Assembly: GCF_021869535.1 (NCBI RefSeq)
Contig: NW_026262734.1
Span: 59,210,001-59,274,000, forward strand
From: Mytilus californianus
Lineage: Eukaryota
Reading direction: 5' to 3'
DNA: 64,000 nucleotides
Positions 23,501-38,500 of this stretch are shown in pieces. Position numbers: made by a program. Each line of letters opens with the position of its first letter. Position 1 is the first letter of the stretch.

Positions 23501-26500
23501 ATCTCATGGCATATCCTATCTAATGGAGGATATGCTGTTTATCCATATCTGAAGGTAAATAATAAATACCAAGGCTACACTGCGTGTGATGCTAGAGGAT
23601 CCAATGGAGTACGAATGTCATGTGGAAATTTGGTGGTTCTTCCATTAAAGAAAGGAGATAAGATTTGGATAGAGGAGTCGACGTCAAATACAAGTGGCCG
23701 TAAAAATGTGCAAGGTGGATTTTCGTCCTTTTCTGCATGGAAAATATGAAATAAAATCTAAAATGCTTCTTATTATTTGTTTATTTTTTCTTAATTGGTT
23801 TAAACAGATTTACAAATCAGCTTAACACAATAAACCTATTATTAAGATAAAAATGAAATGAGCTTCATTTCACTTGGATATATTTAACTCAGGTTAACAT
23901 GATTAATCGTACTGTTTTCTTAATCGAATCAAACAAATGTGTTTATTCTGAATGTTCAATATGAAGATCGTTTGAAGATATTTCCTTCTGACGTAGCAAG
24001 TATATATAAACATTGGTTTTGGAATGAATTTAAGCAAAACTATAGTACATTTGTCACTCCCTCTTTATCGATCATCCGGATTATTGTTATGTGGTTTTCA
24101 AAATGTTAAGAATTACTGATATATAAATAGGAAGATGTGGCATGAGTGCCAATGAGACAACTCTCCATCCAAGTCACAATGCATATATGTATACAAAGTT
24201 AACAATTATACGTCAAAGTACGGCCTTCAACATGGAGCCTTGGCTTACACCGATCAGCAAGCTATAAAGGGCCTTAAATTGACTAGTATAAAAAAATTCA
24301 AACAGGAAAATCAACGGTCTAATCTATATGAAAAACGAGAAACGAAAAACGAGAAACACCTATGATATGCTTTTATTGTAAGCCGATTTATTATTTTGGA
24401 CTAATTTCCAATATTGTTATATATGGATATAAAAGACAAGAGAAATGTACGTAAACATTTAATGAGAAGGAAACATTTTCAATAAGTGTCAATAAAATGC
24501 AACAAATGACATTTAGAGGCAAAATCCAGAAATTGAATACAGAGATGAGACTATAATTAATGTCGAGGTCTTAATAGTCCCATGTTTAAAAATGTTGTTA
24601 ATAAACTAACACATGTAACAGAAGAATCAAAGTCCGATCGTTAACACCTAATTCGAAAAATAACATTTTGATATTACATACAGCATTCCTTAAATGTACA
24701 ATTGTATCAGTGTTTTACGTACATGGTGAACTTACCTTTCCAATAGAACTTTGTTCATTCAAAGTTTCATGTCAAATAAAAGGGATAATACAATTTTATT
24801 ACAAAAGTGTAATCAATGATCATGTTGACCCATATTTCAGTTCTTCTCAAAAGGTGAATTTTAAAAACTACCAAATAAAAATTTAGCATGAAAATATTAA
24901 AATAATGAAATCCGAAGCGAGAAGTTTATCTCTTTTTTTGTTTTTATAAGTTTTAACGTTTAAAAAGTAGATTCCAACACACCCGAATGTAAAAGGTGTA
25001 CGCGACTAACTTTAAAAAAAATTTTCTATAATTTCATTCAAGATAATTTGACAGAAATTTATATCATTAATACATTTATCAAATAGTATTTTTTTAGCCT
25101 TCAACTATAGTAATGCATGGGACGAGGTTTTTGGTCCATGTACACCTAAACGTGCACTCGCAAATACATGGGTAGAAGGCATACTCCCCCCTTTCGATCG
25201 CCAAATAATTTTGAAAATCTCACGTTTTCCAAGTTATCTATACAAATGTTTAGTATATAATCGTCTAATTTTTTTCTCTCGTTGCTCCGCTCGGCAGTAT
25301 AAATGCAATTATCGGGAACTATGCCCTCTTTCAAATATCTTGGATCCGGCCATAATCACAAATTGTATGGCACCAAAAAGAAATTAAACGATTGTCGTTT
25401 GACTTCACCATGTCATCATGACGTCATAAATATTTTAGAACTGACAAAAGGGTCAACACATGTTAATGTATATATCTCTTCTGTTAAATTTGTTTTCACG
25501 TAATATTCTTATTAACATTAATAACAATAATTTTGAGGGCCCGAAAAGAAACATTCAAAATAAAATTCAATTTACTATGCGTTTATATCATACGGTAGAG
25601 AACTATGTCCAATTAATCTAGAAGTTTGTTATTAAAAAACTTTGTAATTTTCGAATTCAAAGGAGGTAATATTACCTGAGTTAACTTTTGAATTATCTCA
25701 ATCCAAATGAAATATAAAATCTCAATAGTTTTCATATAAAACAAATTACGTACTTAAACATATAAATCAAGTTAGTAAATGCAAGCTAATTCGATTATAC
25801 AGTGAAAATATGAACTAGGCATAATAGAAACAACTGAACCTGCGTAACAAATAGTTACTAAAGATTACTTTATTTTCATGTTAATCAACCTTTAAGATTT
25901 GTGACAAAATAATCAAAACATACATGTAGTATAACAAACATAAAATGTATAAATAATAAAAATAAAGCATGACTTTTTGTATAATTACACAAAATAGTTC
26001 AGTTTATAATTCAATTGCGTACCCGCAACTATTAGTACTAATGACTATTTAATAAAGAAAATCATCGTTTCTATTTTTTTGTATTGATGCCAGTTCTATG
26101 GTTTTAAATATGAAACAGAAAAACAATCAAACACATTAAAAACACTTCAGATAACTTTGATTGTTTCGAAAACTTTTCAAAACAAGTGAGGGAGATAATA
26201 TTGAATGATATAAACGAATAACGTATTGTCCTGAAATTGCTACAACTTTGATTCATATCTAGTCGTCTCTACACAGCCAGTATCAAGACTGCCGGGGTTA
26301 ACGATAGATTTTAGCTGCAATTTGTTGTACTGCATTCTTTCTTTGTAAATCTGTTCAAATTCAGCATTTTGTTGCAATGTAAAATAAGATTTCCAGTCGT
26401 CTTCTGTACCTATATAAAACAACAAGATATCATATACATATATTGTTTAAATAAAAATATATGGTGTCTGAAATTTGCCTGTAGGTTTCCTTTATCAATG

Positions 26501-35500: not shown

Positions 35501-38500
35501 TATCTTTACCATAACACACGAATATAACAGAAAAGACGTTAAGACATTTGACAAAATCCGACGAGAATAACAAATATGACATCAAATTAAATACATGAAT
35601 TTGGGATAGAAAAGTACCGTGACACGTCTTATAGCAATGCGGTTTCACACTCAGCAAAACAGTCACAATCGGGAATAAGTCACGTTTGGTAATTATAAGA
35701 TCAGACGACGTAATGACAAACCACAATCTAACACGTGGTAAAAATGTCCTTAGTTAGTTTGGACAAAGACACATCGTATGGATCAACCAATTCGTGATGG
35801 TGTCCGTAAAATTTACGGAGTGTCATTTTTAATCTGTCCTTCTCATAACTTTGTTGGAGCAGTTTCTGCGTAAGGAGCACACTCCTGTGTATGAAGTCCG
35901 TATAGTGTGAACAAGCACGAGAATAACGTATCAATTGAGATATGTAAACACCATACGAAGGGGCAGAGGGTATGTTACTGCTGAGAAATGGGAAATTGAT
36001 AATTGGGAAGTTGAAATCGACCGGTTTATCATAGATTTTCGTGTGAAGTCGTCCATCTGTGTCAATATTGAGGAAAAGATCAAGGTATGAAGCAGTCCTT
36101 CTAGTATCAGTAGTATCCTTAATAAATCCGACAGACGGAAATTCACTGTATACATCATAGTTTGAGCATTTATTTACTAGATCTAAAAAAAACGGACATG
36201 ATCTTGAGAGTGTACATAGTGGCTGTCGTTTGTTGCTGTATATTATATTTGTTTTTCGTTCATTGTTTTGCACATAAATCAGGTTTGAATTCTTTCACAA
36301 TTGTCATTTCGGGGCTTTTTATATCTGTCAATGTGGAATAAGTCTCACTCATTGTTGAGGACCGTACGGTGACCTGTCTGAATTGCAATCATACCACATC
36401 TTCTTTTTTTATGTAATGGAACAAACAAACCAAGAAAATGAGGTCAAGGTCAGACGACCCCTCTCTGGCGGACATTTTTACTTTACAATCACGATATTCT
36501 TCAATATAGCTGACCTTTTACTCACAGTATCTCTGAGAAGAAAAAAACCACAAAAGTTTGACTAAGATATGGAATCACATCTTCTTTTTTTATGTAATGG
36601 AACAAACAAACCAAGAAAATGAGGTCAAGGTCAGACGACCCCTCTCTGGCGGACATTTTTACTTTACAATCACGATATTCTTCAATATAGCTGACCTTTT
36701 ACTCACAGTATCTCTGAGAAGAAAAAAACCACAAAAGTTTGACTAAGATATGTAATGAAACTAAGTGCAAATGAATGATCTTTGACACGTTTAATGCCTA
36801 AGCTTGCAATAATTATATATCCTAAATATTGGCCTATTACTGATAATTTTTGAAAAATCACGTGATGAAAACAATTTAAACGGTTTGTTCTTATTTGAAT
36901 TGTTCCAATTGTACCAGATTAGGGGTAGTGTTGGGCGCTCACAAACATGTTAAATCCCGGCATATCTTTTCTGTGCATCTTCCAAGTAATTAGTCTATAA
37001 ATCAGTGGTTGTCGTTGGCTGTTGCCTGTTAAATATGTTTTTCATTCCTAGTTGTAGTATAAATCAAGCCGTATGTCCGGACCTTTTATAACTAACTATA
37101 TGTTGGTTTTAACTCATTGCAGAAGGTCACACAATGACCCGTAATTGTTAAACTATTTGTTTGCCCTTTTGTGTTTATGTTCTCATTAGCAAAAATACTA
37201 CATATCGTTATTTTTATACGTCGTTTTTAAGCGATTGAATCGTGAACAGTGAAAATAAGTCGAGGACAACTGGTCTATTCTTAATGGAAACTAATCATTA
37301 TACCACATATGGATTATACATATATGCAGCTGGTCTGCACTCTTGAGATATAAAACTTGATACAAAAAGAGCACGCCGTTGCTGGATAAGCGTCTTTATG
37401 TTTGCATCCTGCGATTTTCAGGTAACGTAATACCTCATTTCAAAGTGGTAATACAAAACACAAAAAATTCACAGTTTGGTTGAGACATGATTTTTGCGTG
37501 TAAGAAATCTTTCAAACCTGCCGTTAAACGAAATACCTGATTTCGGATATGAACAAATAATGACATCATTGTCATCGGCATCAAATGACTGCATATGTTT
37601 CCACTGTGAAGGTATATCTGGAATACTTGCTGGAAAATAACGTCCTTCATATTCTTTTACAGTTATGGATCCAGCTAAATCACTATCCGCAACAAAAGTT
37701 TTTAACATTTCTATGAAAATAAATATAACCATATTATTACAATGATTTATCTTAAGTCTTATTACATTGTCGAGAGTCATGGCAACTATAAGGCTTATAA
37801 AATAAGTTGTGGTATGATAACCAATAAGACGACCCTCACAAGTGACCAAATAACTTATGAATTAATAAATATAGATCACCGTACAGCCTTCAACAATGGA
37901 AAAAACCCATACCCAATGGTAAGCTATAAAAAGGCCCCGACATGACTTATGTTAAACAATTCAAACGAGAAAAACAAACTGCCTGATTTATGTACGAAAC
38001 AATAAACGAAAAACAAAGATGATATACAGCAACAAACGACAACCACTAAATTACAAGCACCTGACTTGGGACAGACACATACAAATTGTGGATATGGCAT
38101 ATATGAATAGACCTGTCTTATGACATAATACATTTCTACATAGGCAAGATATTCATGTAATTGTTTTATGATTTTGTTTTATCTGAACATAATTATAGTT
38201 TATTTTATTGAAATTATAAGTAATAACACTTGCCAATGTGACAAATATCATTCACAAATCAACGGACAATGATGTAAGCAACTATAGGTCATCGTGTTGC
38301 CTTGAAAAAATAGCAAACGAAAATGAAAGAACATGGAGTAAATGTACATGGGACAAAATCGCGGACCAATACATAGAAAAATAAAAAAAATATCAAGGAA
38401 CAGGGCTTTTATTCCATCTATTTTATTCTATTTAAGCCCATCTATGCCGTATACTAAGCTATAAAAGATTCCGGTATGACAAAATCCGAAACATTTCAAG

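What the first reader, a model, noticed from the sequence alone, without database searches (positions are those of the whole stretch)
26380..37560. Shared non-canonical substitutions in PAPS-binding and catalytic motifs of both SULTs
Seen in A and B: the 5'-PSB loop is YPKSG-F-HW (canonical YPKSG-T-T/H-W); the catalytic His context is VL-G-SH (canonical IK(T/S)H, with the Lys lost); FNDW replaces YGSW; the C-terminal motif is RKG(T/I)E-D-DWK instead of RKGxxGDWK. The PSB Lys, 3'-PB Arg/Ser (RDPRAVAIS), catalytic His and YED are retained, and both ORFs are intact. Inference: altered cofactor handling or a repurposed SULT-fold enzyme (precedent: insect retinol dehydratase is SULT-fold), consistent with a new compartment.
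Basis: partly seen in the sequence, partly recalled or inferred. Interest (0 to 1): 0.68.

Follow-up and report, generated by a model that had tools for sequence, protein, structure and literature searches.

The report
Mussel sulfotransferase pair with lineage-specific motifs
Two neighbouring mussel genes encode sulfotransferases that keep all the core cofactor-binding and catalytic residues; their unusual motif changes turn out to be either normal for this invertebrate branch or old, conserved marks of a mollusc sub-branch, so they are an ordinary but distinct family member.

Summary
The window (Mytilus californianus) holds two intact five-exon cytosolic-type sulfotransferase genes on the minus strand: A at 37708-26240 and B at 56534-44280. 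Both read YPKSG-FHW, PRVLGSH, FNDW and RKG(T/I)EDDWK. Lys56, His106, Arg128, Ser136 and Arg-Lys-Gly 258-260 are kept. Gene A is the RefSeq protein 'sulfotransferase 1B1-like'.

- **Normal for the branch:** His in 'THW' (62 of 81 other relatives) and absence of the Lys before the catalytic His (8 of 81 have it). Mouse SULT7A1, an active enzyme solved with PAP, shows both.
- **Rare outside the lineage:** Thr to Phe (0 of 81) and Gly to Asp (3 of 81).
- **Old clade markers:** Asp defines a well-supported clade of Mytilus, unionid mussels and unnamed relatives. A hydrophobic residue at the Thr site extends to abalone.
- **Structural context:** in the model the Asp sits just before a short helix; this column accepts G, D, N and S.

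The most likely reading is working PAPS-dependent sulfotransferases of a mollusc-specific lineage with a modified donor-site rim. Nothing here shows altered cofactor use.

More striking is a Mytilus-only 20-residue disordered tail ending in -SKL, a peroxisome-import-like signal.

The parts
37537..37708 (-). Gene A exon 1 (Met1 to Ser57 plus first base of Gly58); YPKS at 37549-37538
   Evidence: donor TCAG|GT
33758..34078 (-). Gene A exon 2 (Gly58 completion, Phe59 to Lys164, first base of Val165). FHW 34076-34068; PRVLGSHL 33953-33930; RDPRAVAIS 33869-33843
   Evidence: Pfam Sulfotransfer_1 66 bits against a cut-off of 22
30025..30128 (-). Gene A exon 3 (Val165 completion, Leu166 to Lys199). 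FNDW 30123-30112; YED 30042-30034
   Evidence: Pfam profile positions 137-166, 16.5 bits, below the cut-off on its own
28046..28226 (-). Gene A exon 4 (Asn200 to Lys259 plus first base of Gly260). Arg258-Lys259 at 28052-28047
   Evidence: Pfam profile positions 167-204, 12.7 bits
26240..26409 (-). Gene A exon 5 coding part (Gly260 completion, TEDDWK 26407-26390, 20-residue tail, SKL 26251-26243, stop TAG 26242-26240)
   Evidence: Pfam profile positions 229-252
56363..56534 (-). Gene B exon 1 (MLKTF...YPKS plus first base of Gly)
54708..55025 (-). Gene B exon 2 (FHW..., PRVLGSHL, RDPRAIAVS)
   Evidence: Pfam 66.1 bits. 99 of 105 residues identical to M. coruscus P0006
52983..53086 (-). Gene B exon 3 (LFNDW..., FYEDAKK)
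51275..51455 (-). Gene B exon 4 (DPFYEFK...PLYRK plus first base of Gly)
44280..44449 (-). Gene B exon 5 coding part (IEDDWK..., tail ending ESKL, stop TAG)

Best explanation
A and B are two neighbouring paralogues of a mollusc-specific lineage of cytosolic-type (Sulfotransfer_1) sulfotransferases.

They most likely still bind PAPS and transfer sulfonate by the usual route: His106 acts as base and Lys56 as the 5'-phosphosulfate ligand. Arg128, Ser136 and Arg258-Lys259-Gly260 hold the 3'-phosphate.

The flagged substitutions fall into three groups:
- **The norm of the wider branch.** These are His60 in 'T-H-W' and the missing Lys before the catalytic His. The branch is the invertebrate, SULT6B/7A-like group.
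- **Shared-derived features of an old mollusc sub-clade.** These are a hydrophobic residue in place of the first loop Thr, Asp in place of the second Gly of GxxGxxK, and RDPRA in place of RNPKD.
- **Mytilus-specific fine tuning.** This covers FNDW and Gly104.

Inferred, not shown:
- Phe59 and Phe167 each remove one hydroxyl near the donor. That changes the rim of the donor/acceptor site (affinity, PAP release or acceptor preference) rather than the chemistry.
- Asp263 is a structurally conservative replacement at the residue preceding a short helix.
For: **Family and fold**
- Exon 2 alone scores 66 bits on Sulfotransfer_1 (cut-off 22). Exons 3-5 hit collinear profile segments.
- P0002 matches 49 distinct solved sulfotransferase sequences at E <= 0.001, best 5x2b at 5.3e-49.
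- The AlphaFold2 model has mean pLDDT 89.6 and pTM 0.89.
- Its best Foldseek match is human SULT1B1 with PAP, TM 0.78/0.84.

**Core ligands kept**
- They are kept in 6 of 6 Mytilus proteins.
- Among 81 other relatives the same columns read K 73, H 80, R 81, S 81, R 77, K 66 and G 76.

**Substitution frequencies among those 81**
- Position 60: H 62.
- Position 104: N 47, K 8, G 3.
- Position 59: T 61, F 0, L 2.
- Position 263: G 68, D 3, N 2, S 2.

**Clade structure**
- Careful tree of 34 rows: Mytilus 100/100. Mytilus plus 7 rows with LHW and DDWK (two unionid mussels, five unnamed) 100/99. Adding two Haliotis rows (FHW but GDWK) and P0051 (VHW) gives 99/94.
- The quick tree of 57 rows agrees, 96 and 96.

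**Selection**
- A against B: 49 amino-acid differences in 311 codons, dN 0.077, dS 0.183, ratio 0.42.
- B is closer to M. coruscus P0006 (290 of 311 residues) than to A. The pair therefore predates that species split, and the motifs survived it.

**Activity without the Lys**
- SULT7A1 has THW and no such Lys. It is PAPS-dependent, and its H51A and H94A mutants are dead (PMC10939482, passages).

**Structural context**
- In the model, helices start at residues 59 and 264. Asp263 is therefore the residue just before a helix.
Against: - No activity, PAPS-binding or expression data exist for any member of this clade in what I could search. The listing and the passages concern other bivalve SULTs.
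- Thr to Phe removes a side chain that, from recall of the SULT1 crystal structures, hydrogen-bonds the 5'-phosphate. No assayed enzyme with Phe or Leu at this site was found.
- The tools gave no coordinates, so I could not measure where Phe59 or Asp263 point.
- A dN/dS of 0.42 is only moderate constraint.
- The Mytilus stem branch is long (0.67-0.72 changes per column). Eighteen otherwise conserved columns are changed in Mytilus, so some functional shift is plausible.
- The trait columns themselves were left in the tree alignments.
Confidence: 0.68

Rival explanations
1. A repurposed PAPS-dependent enzyme with non-classical chemistry, such as C-sulfonation like SULT7A1 or sulfonation followed by elimination like retinol dehydratase. 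The hydrophobic residue next to His60 would reshape the reactive centre.
For: - The best sequence match among solved structures is SULT7A1.
- Its His51 is essential (PMC10939482, passages). By my count from the alignment, His51 is the His of THW and corresponds to His60 here.
- Eighteen conserved columns are changed in Mytilus.
Against: - The second special residue of SULT7A1, Cys234, aligns with Asn247, and the loop has no Cys.
- THW is the majority state of the whole invertebrate branch, 62 of 81, so it does not mark a special chemistry here.
- Identity to SULT7A1 is about 31%, below the 45% family rule quoted.
- Retinol dehydratase is distant, E 2.9e-12.
Confidence: 0.1
2. A catalytically silent SULT-fold protein (binding protein or regulator) whose donor site has decayed.
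For: - Loss of hydroxyls at positions 59 and 167, and Gly to Asp in the GxxGxxK motif.
- Only moderate constraint, dN/dS 0.42.
Against: - The catalytic His, the loop Lys, Arg/Ser and RKG are kept in 6 of 6 Mytilus proteins. In the 7 sister-clade proteins they are also kept, except Ser136, which is Ala in the two unionid proteins.
- The changes are fixed across a clade that spans Mytilus and unionids. That pattern is conservation, not decay.
Confidence: 0.07
3. A peroxisomal SULT-fold enzyme that handles another 3'-phospho-ADP compound there (PAP or coenzyme A derivatives) instead of PAPS. This is the strong form of the reader's 'altered cofactor handling'.
For:
- The tail is disordered in the model.
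- From recall, the donor-site residue changed (Phe59) lies next to where the group beyond the 5'-phosphate sits.
Against: - The Thr to hydrophobic and Gly to Asp changes predate the tail. The sister clade has them but ends in -SSL, -SML, -SFL or -SSI.
- All classical PAPS ligands are kept.
- No test of binding was possible.
Confidence: 0.05
4. Annotation artefact or pseudogenes: the odd residues come from wrong splice choices or decaying copies.
For: Three motif residues (Gly58, Val165, Gly260) are encoded by codons split across introns.
Against: - All junctions are GT..AG and in phase in both genes.
- The exon translations match the independent RefSeq model exactly.
- The same residues occur in five other Mytilus proteins.
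- Both reading frames are open.
Confidence: 0.02

Closest known systems
Mouse SULT7A1 (PDB 5x2b; formerly 'SULT6B2 / SULT6B1-like')
   Same: - Best sequence match among solved structures, E 5.3e-49.
- YPKSG-x-HW loop with the His.
- No Lys before the catalytic Thr/Ser-His (AIPTH against VLGSH).
- Binds PAP and uses PAPS.
   Different: - About 31% identity.
- SULT7A1 has Thr, not Phe, before the His.
- It has YGSW and RKGVVGDW.
- Its essential Cys234 aligns with Asn247 here.
- It has no C-terminal -SKL extension.
Human SULT1B1 (PDB 3ckl, 2z5f), the name used in the RefSeq annotation
   Same: - Best structural match, TM 0.78/0.84.
- Same fold and the same core ligands.
   Different: - 31% identity.
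- From recall, SULT1 enzymes read TYPKSGTTW, KTH, YGSW and RKGxxGDWK.
- 'SULT1B1-like' is a similarity label, not orthology.
Unionid mussel homologues (Sinanodonta woodiana P0029, Potamilus streckersoni P0157) and the unnamed P0020, P0044, P0158-P0160
   Same: - Sister clade, support 100/99.
- A hydrophobic residue (Leu) at the Thr site.
- RDPRAVA.
- RKGxxDDW.
- No Asn or Lys before the catalytic His.
   Different: - 34-38% identity.
- Leu rather than Phe.
- GSW or NSW rather than NDW.
- They end at -SSL, -SML, -SFL or -SSI, without the 20-residue -SKL tail.
Haliotis 'sulfotransferase 1B1-like' (P0161, P0162)
   Same: - Identical YPKSGFHW loop.
- FNSW.
- Next-outer clade, support 99/94.
   Different: - They keep RKGEVGDWK and RDPKD.
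- No -SKL.
   Same: Sulfotransfer_1 fold relative.
   Different: - Distant: E 2.9e-12 to 1.1e-11, matching only residues 100-289.
- From recall, it is still PAPS-dependent.

Membership tests
Cytosolic-type sulfotransferase (Pfam PF00685 Sulfotransfer_1) | Significant match to the family profile | tested here: met
   Exon 2 of A scores 66 bits and of B 66.1 bits against a cut-off of 22. Exons 3-5 hit collinear profile segments below the cut-off on their own. Exon 1 has no hit. PF00685 is precomputed for P0002.
Cytosolic-type sulfotransferase (Pfam PF00685 Sulfotransfer_1) | 5'-phosphosulfate-binding loop with its Lys (PKSG) | tested here: met
   YPKSG in A and B. Lys56 is present in 6 of 6 Mytilus proteins and 73 of 81 other relatives. 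The following Thr is Phe.
Cytosolic-type sulfotransferase (Pfam PF00685 Sulfotransfer_1) | Catalytic His | tested here: met
   His106 in PRVLGSHL in both genes. The column is His in 80 of 81 others.
Cytosolic-type sulfotransferase (Pfam PF00685 Sulfotransfer_1) | 3'-phosphate-binding Arg and Ser, and Arg-Lys-Gly of region IV | tested here: met
   Arg128, Ser136 and Arg258-Lys259-Gly260 are present. The motif roles are as given in PMC4199319 (passages).
Cytosolic-type sulfotransferase (Pfam PF00685 Sulfotransfer_1) | Full GxxGxxK motif | tested here: not met
   The motif reads G-T/I-E-D-D-W-K, so the second Gly is Asp. The column is Gly in 68 of 81 others, with D 3, N 2 and S 2. It is therefore a frequent feature, not an absolute one.
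Cytosolic-type sulfotransferase (Pfam PF00685 Sulfotransfer_1) | SULT fold | tested here: met
   AlphaFold2 pLDDT 89.6. Foldseek TM 0.71-0.79 (query-normalised) and 0.78-0.88 (target-normalised) to the listed SULT structures.
Cytosolic-type sulfotransferase (Pfam PF00685 Sulfotransfer_1) | PAPS binding and sulfonate transfer | not testable with these tools
   Needs recombinant protein.
SULT7 family (SULT7A1) | At least 45% identity to a family member (nomenclature rule quoted in PMC10939482) | tested here: not met
   About 31% identity in the Foldseek alignment.
SULT7 family (SULT7A1) | His51, His94 and Cys234 triad | tested here: not met
   The two His residues are present (His60, His106). 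The Cys234 column is Asn247, and residues 235-257 hold no Cys. The loop alignment is of moderate confidence.
PTS1-bearing (peroxisome-imported) proteins | C-terminal tripeptide of the type [SAC][KRH][LM] on an accessible tail | tested here: met
   -SKL in A, B and 6 of 6 Mytilus proteins, and in none of the other 114 proteins of 250 residues or more held. Tail pLDDT is below 50 for residues 308-315. The consensus used is recalled.
PTS1-bearing (peroxisome-imported) proteins | PEX5-dependent import | not testable with these tools
   Needs localisation experiments. No PTS1 predictor was at hand.

The most novel reading that the evidence does not exclude
The Mytilus lineage turned an old mollusc sulfotransferase, one with an already remodelled donor-site rim (Thr to Phe, Tyr to Phe, Gly to Asp), into a peroxisomal enzyme. 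It did so by extending the reading frame by 20 codons to a conserved ...DTGCVE.TRY.SKL tail.

If so, sulfonation, or another reaction on a 3'-phospho-ADP cofactor, takes place inside mussel peroxisomes. That would be a compartment with no described SULT in the two literature searches I ran. The closest item found was a PTS1-bearing PAPS synthase proposed for firefly lanterns (PMC6191289, passages).
Probability: 0.15. Interest if true: 0.6.

Novelty: new member of a known kind. Interest (0 to 1): 0.27.

Why it matters
Bivalves carry large expansions of cytosolic sulfotransferases. One paper counts 83 genes in a scallop against 13 in humans and links them to toxin handling (PMC5700196, passages).

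This case shows which textbook SULT motif residues are dispensable in nature. The Lys before the catalytic His, the first loop Thr and the second Gly of GxxGxxK all vary in conserved lineages. Motif-based calls of 'inactive' or 'repurposed' SULTs should therefore be made against the right subfamily background.

The practical lead is a defined mollusc clade for biochemical testing: hydrophobic-HW plus DDWK. Its Mytilus branch also carries a peroxisome-type tail.

Tried and rejected
- **Cluster names.** It was not repeated. Names came from the profile search, so many relatives remain unnamed.
- **Exon 5 search.** The exon 5 peptide with 'longer' lengths returned only Mytilus proteins, 8 of 14 candidates. 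It gave no further DDWK carriers. Because the search is word-based, this is weak evidence.
- **Literature on the loop Thr.** A search for 'sulfotransferase', 'Thr51', 'Lys48' and 'PAPS' together found 0 papers.
- **Literature on GxxGxxK.** The search gave reviews only. The original mutagenesis paper I recall (Komatsu et al. 1994) was not seen.
- **Residue geometry.** The structure tools return no coordinates (one search shows none on disk), so the contacts of Phe59 and Asp263 could not be measured.
- **Other ORFs.** Pfam found nothing for the ORFs at 35728-36294, 57578-57931, 58546-58998, 46763-47179 and 1302-1673.
- **Pseudogene or splice-artefact reading.** Rejected; see the rival explanations.
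- **A third SULT copy in the window.** Rejected.
- **Not used.** Complex prediction, because no protein-protein claim is made. Genome contigs, because it holds only bacteria and archaea.
- **Supplements.** The supplements of PMC10939482 (alignments S2, S10) and PMC5700196 (SULT tree, Supplementary Fig. 23) could not be read. They may show whether this clade has already been drawn.

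
Full report
**What is there**

The window is AT-rich eukaryotic DNA, about 32% G+C. It holds one run of N at 8646-8825, which I left as it is. A six-frame motif scan and stop-to-stop ORF lists show two sets of five sulfotransferase-like exons on the minus strand.

I read every junction at nucleotide level. All are GT..AG and in phase. Three motif residues are encoded by split codons: Gly58 (YPKS|G|FHW), Val165 (GK|V|LFNDW) and Gly260 (RK|G|TEDDWK). Gene A runs from 37708 to the TAG at 26242-26240. 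Gene B runs from 56534 to the TAG at 44282-44280. The finding's coordinates cover gene A only.

Searches with window sequence were made exon by exon. The exon-2 search returned a public protein, P0002 ('sulfotransferase 1B1-like', Mytilus californianus, 315 aa). The five exon translations of A are exact substrings of it, at 1-57, 59-164, 166-199, 200-259 and 261-315. All whole-length analyses used that public protein. The joined step was left out.

Both genes read YPKSGFHW, PRVLGSHL, VLFNDWF and RKG(T/I)EDDWK. The 3'-phosphate motif is RDPRAVAIS in A and RDPRAIAVS in B. The YED motif is SYED in A and FYED in B. Both frames are open. tblastn finds no third copy.

'Seen in A and B' is not two independent observations, because the genes are paralogues. 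They differ at 49 of 311 codons, with dN 0.077, dS 0.183 and a ratio of 0.42. B is closer to M. coruscus P0006 (290 of 311 residues) than to A, so the duplication predates that species split. A fused M. edulis gene model, P0001, carries two such units in tandem. The motifs are the same in 6 of 6 full-length Mytilus proteins from five species. The one exception is Asn for the Asp in a single M. coruscus protein.

**Family and fold**

- Exon 2 alone scores 66 bits on Pfam Sulfotransfer_1 (cut-off 22).
- Exons 3, 4 and 5 match collinear profile segments (137-166, 167-204/207, 229-252) but fall below the cut-off on their own. Exon 1 matches nothing.
- P0002 matches 49 distinct solved sequences at E <= 0.001. 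The best is 5x2b (5.3e-49), followed by human SULT1B1 and SULT1C2.
- An AlphaFold2 model built on a 76-row alignment has mean pLDDT 89.6 and pTM 0.89.
- Foldseek puts it on SULT1B1 with PAP at TM 0.78/0.84, with mouse SULT7A1 (5x2b) at rank 7.

**How unusual are the substitutions?**

A profile-free HMMER scan with exon 2 found 834 representatives at E <= 0.001. The best 150 were returned. A profile search added 54 proteins, many with species names.

For the main count I used 97 near-full-length proteins:
- 6 Mytilus proteins;
- 7 from the sister clade;
- 2 Haliotis proteins plus P0051;
- 81 others of 270-340 residues.

Fragments, multi-domain models, P0001 and P0173 were dropped. An earlier count on 71 rows of 250-400 residues gave the same picture.

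Among the 81 others:

| Site (P0002 numbering) | Residues seen in the 81 others |
|---|---|
| His of T-H-W (60) | H 62, T 13, N 4 |
| Residue before Ser/Thr-His (104) | N 47, K 8, V 5, A 4, G 3 |
| First loop Thr (59) | T 61, N 6, C 4, S 4, H 2, L 2, A 1, F 0 |
| Tyr of YGSW (167) | Y 36, F 14, W 9 |
| Gly of YGSW (168) | G 61, N 3 |
| Ser of YGSW (169) | S 41, T 10, D 6 |
| Second Gly of GxxGxxK (263) | G 68, D 3, N 2, S 2 |

The 'lost Lys' and the His are therefore the norm of this branch, not a peculiarity.

The closest solved structure makes the same point. SULT7A1 reads YPKSGTHW and AIPTH, and it was crystallised with PAP. It is a PAPS-dependent enzyme whose H51A and H94A mutants are inactive (PMC10939482, passages read). 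By my own count from the alignment (chain index plus 5, which also puts the catalytic His at 94), its His51 is the His of THW.

Thr to Phe and Gly to Asp are uncommon. FNDW is a combination of states that are each seen elsewhere.

**Where the rarer changes come from**

A careful maximum-likelihood tree of 34 rows gives the following support values (ultrafast bootstrap / SH-aLRT):
- Mytilus: 100/100.
- Mytilus plus seven proteins: 100/99. The seven are the unionid mussels Sinanodonta woodiana and Potamilus streckersoni, and five unnamed proteins. All read PKSG-L-HW, RDPRAVA and RKGxxDDW.
- That clade plus two Haliotis proteins (YPKSGFHW but GDWK) and P0051 (VHW): 99/94.

A quick tree of 57 rows agrees. 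The trait columns were left in both alignments. They are a handful among about 304 columns.

A hydrophobic residue at the Thr site and Asp at the Gly site are thus shared-derived marks of an old mollusc lineage. Identity between the sub-clades is only 34-38%. The marks have been kept since, which is the pattern of conserved function rather than decay.

An unbiased scan for Mytilus-specific changes at columns at least 60% conserved in the 81 others returned 18 columns.
- Asp132 to Ala (RNPKD to RDPRA; D in 73 of 81 others).
- Arg45 to Asp.
- Asp47 to Asn.
- Ser99 to Pro.
- Glu275 to Ala and Val271 to Leu, both in the KxxxTVxxxE stretch that PMC10939482 calls the dimerisation motif.

**Structural reading (inferred)**

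In the model a helix starts at residue 59 and another at 264. Asp263 is therefore the residue just before a short helix. The column accepts G, D, N and S. From recalled general knowledge, these are the residues favoured at helix N-caps, so Gly to Asp looks conservative there.

Phe59 is the first helical residue after the phosphate-binding glycine. From recall of SULT1 structures, the Thr hydroxyl there hydrogen-bonds the 5'-phosphate while the backbone amides do most of the binding. I could not check the geometry, because no coordinates are returned.

**Most likely mechanism**

These are ordinary PAPS-dependent sulfonate transferases. His106 serves as base, and Lys56, Arg128, Ser136 and Arg258-Lys259-Gly260 hold the donor. 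These ligands are present in all 6 Mytilus proteins; their roles are taken from the literature. In the 7 sister-clade proteins they are also present, except that Ser136 is Ala in the two unionids.

The donor/acceptor rim is made more hydrophobic by Phe59 and Phe167. This is inferred. The effect on affinity, PAP release or acceptor choice is unknown.

Rivals are a repurposed chemistry, a silent binding protein, a different 3'-phospho-ADP cofactor, and an artefact. They are set out with their tests in the Rival explanations section. None is favoured by the data.

**The tail**

Both genes, and 6 of 6 Mytilus proteins, end in a 20-residue extension (NPG..D[ST]GCVE.TRY[EG]SKL). It lies beyond the point where the sister clade ends, at ...KLKSSL or similar.

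The tail is disordered in the model: block means are 61, 50 and 38, and residues 308-315 are below 50.

However, the donor-site changes predate it.

A search for sulfotransferase together with PTS1 found 9 papers. I read passages of one of them, which proposes a PTS1-bearing PAPS synthase in firefly lanterns (PMC6191289). The other listed titles did not concern a peroxisomal sulfotransferase. I saw no paper describing a peroxisomal SULT.

**Context and verdict**

Cytosolic SULTs are strongly expanded in bivalves: 83 in a scallop, 26 and 31 in oysters, 13 in humans (PMC5700196, passages). A recombinant scallop enzyme has been reported active with PAPS (PMC13603450, passages; no motif detail seen). 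Lineage-specific variants are therefore expected.

The genes are already annotated. What is new is modest: a defined mollusc clade with a hydrophobic-HW loop and DDWK, and its Mytilus branch with FNDW, Gly104 and an -SKL tail.

- **Observation:** confirmed.
- **Interpretation:** partly supported.
- **Novelty:** new member of a known kind.
- **Interest:** low to moderate. The tail is the more interesting lead.

**What stayed unchecked**
- Paper supplements.
- The metagenome and viral collections, which were closed.
- Residue-level geometry.

Noticed in passing
window 26243-26302 (gene A) and 44283-44342 (gene B), minus strand: A 20-residue C-terminal extension ending in -SKL, with a conserved DTGCVE.TRY core including one Cys. 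It is present in both genes and 6 of 6 Mytilus proteins, and absent from the sister clade and the other 114 long proteins held. It is disordered in the model and looks like a peroxisomal import signal added by extension of the reading frame.
   Followed up: partly
window 33869-33843 (A) and the same motif in B: The 3'-phosphate motif reads RDPRA instead of RNPKD. The Asp is conserved in 73 of 81 other relatives, and it is Ala in the whole 13-protein clade.
   Followed up: partly
P0002 residues 266-276 (window about 26392-26360, minus strand): The KxxxTVxxxE stretch, called the dimerisation motif in PMC10939482, reads KSYFTLQQNAE. Val is replaced by Leu, and the Glu column is Ala in Mytilus only. 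The proteins may not dimerise in the classical way.
   Followed up: no
exons 1, 3, 5 against exons 2, 4 of genes A and B: Synonymous divergence between A and B is uneven: pS 0.07-0.11 in exons 1, 3 and 5 against 0.20-0.28 in exons 2 and 4. This may reflect patchy gene conversion between the paralogues.
   Followed up: no
window 30182-32608: A tandem duplication of about 1.2 kb, two copies at 88-98% identity, inside the intron between exons 2 and 3 of gene A.
   Followed up: partly
window 36395-36756: A 181-bp unit repeated twice at 99% identity in intron 1 of gene A. Next to it, at 35728-36294 (minus strand), lies a 188-codon open frame with no Pfam match, probably a repeat-element remnant.
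   Followed up: partly
window 23315-23749 (+): An open frame with a C1q domain (Pfam E 4.4e-13), downstream of gene A on the opposite strand.
   Followed up: partly
window 18208-18540 (+): An open frame with a weak AIG1 (GIMAP-type GTPase) match: 25 bits, just under the cut-off of 27.
   Followed up: no
window 57578-58998 (+): Two open frames of 117 and 150 codons just upstream of gene B, with no Pfam match. By eye they resemble retroelement gag/protease remnants. This was not tested.
   Followed up: no
P0001 (Mytilus edulis, 582 aa): A public gene model that fuses two tandem SULT units of this clade into one protein. It is probably an annotation merge, and it shows that the tandem arrangement also exists in M. 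edulis.
   Followed up: no
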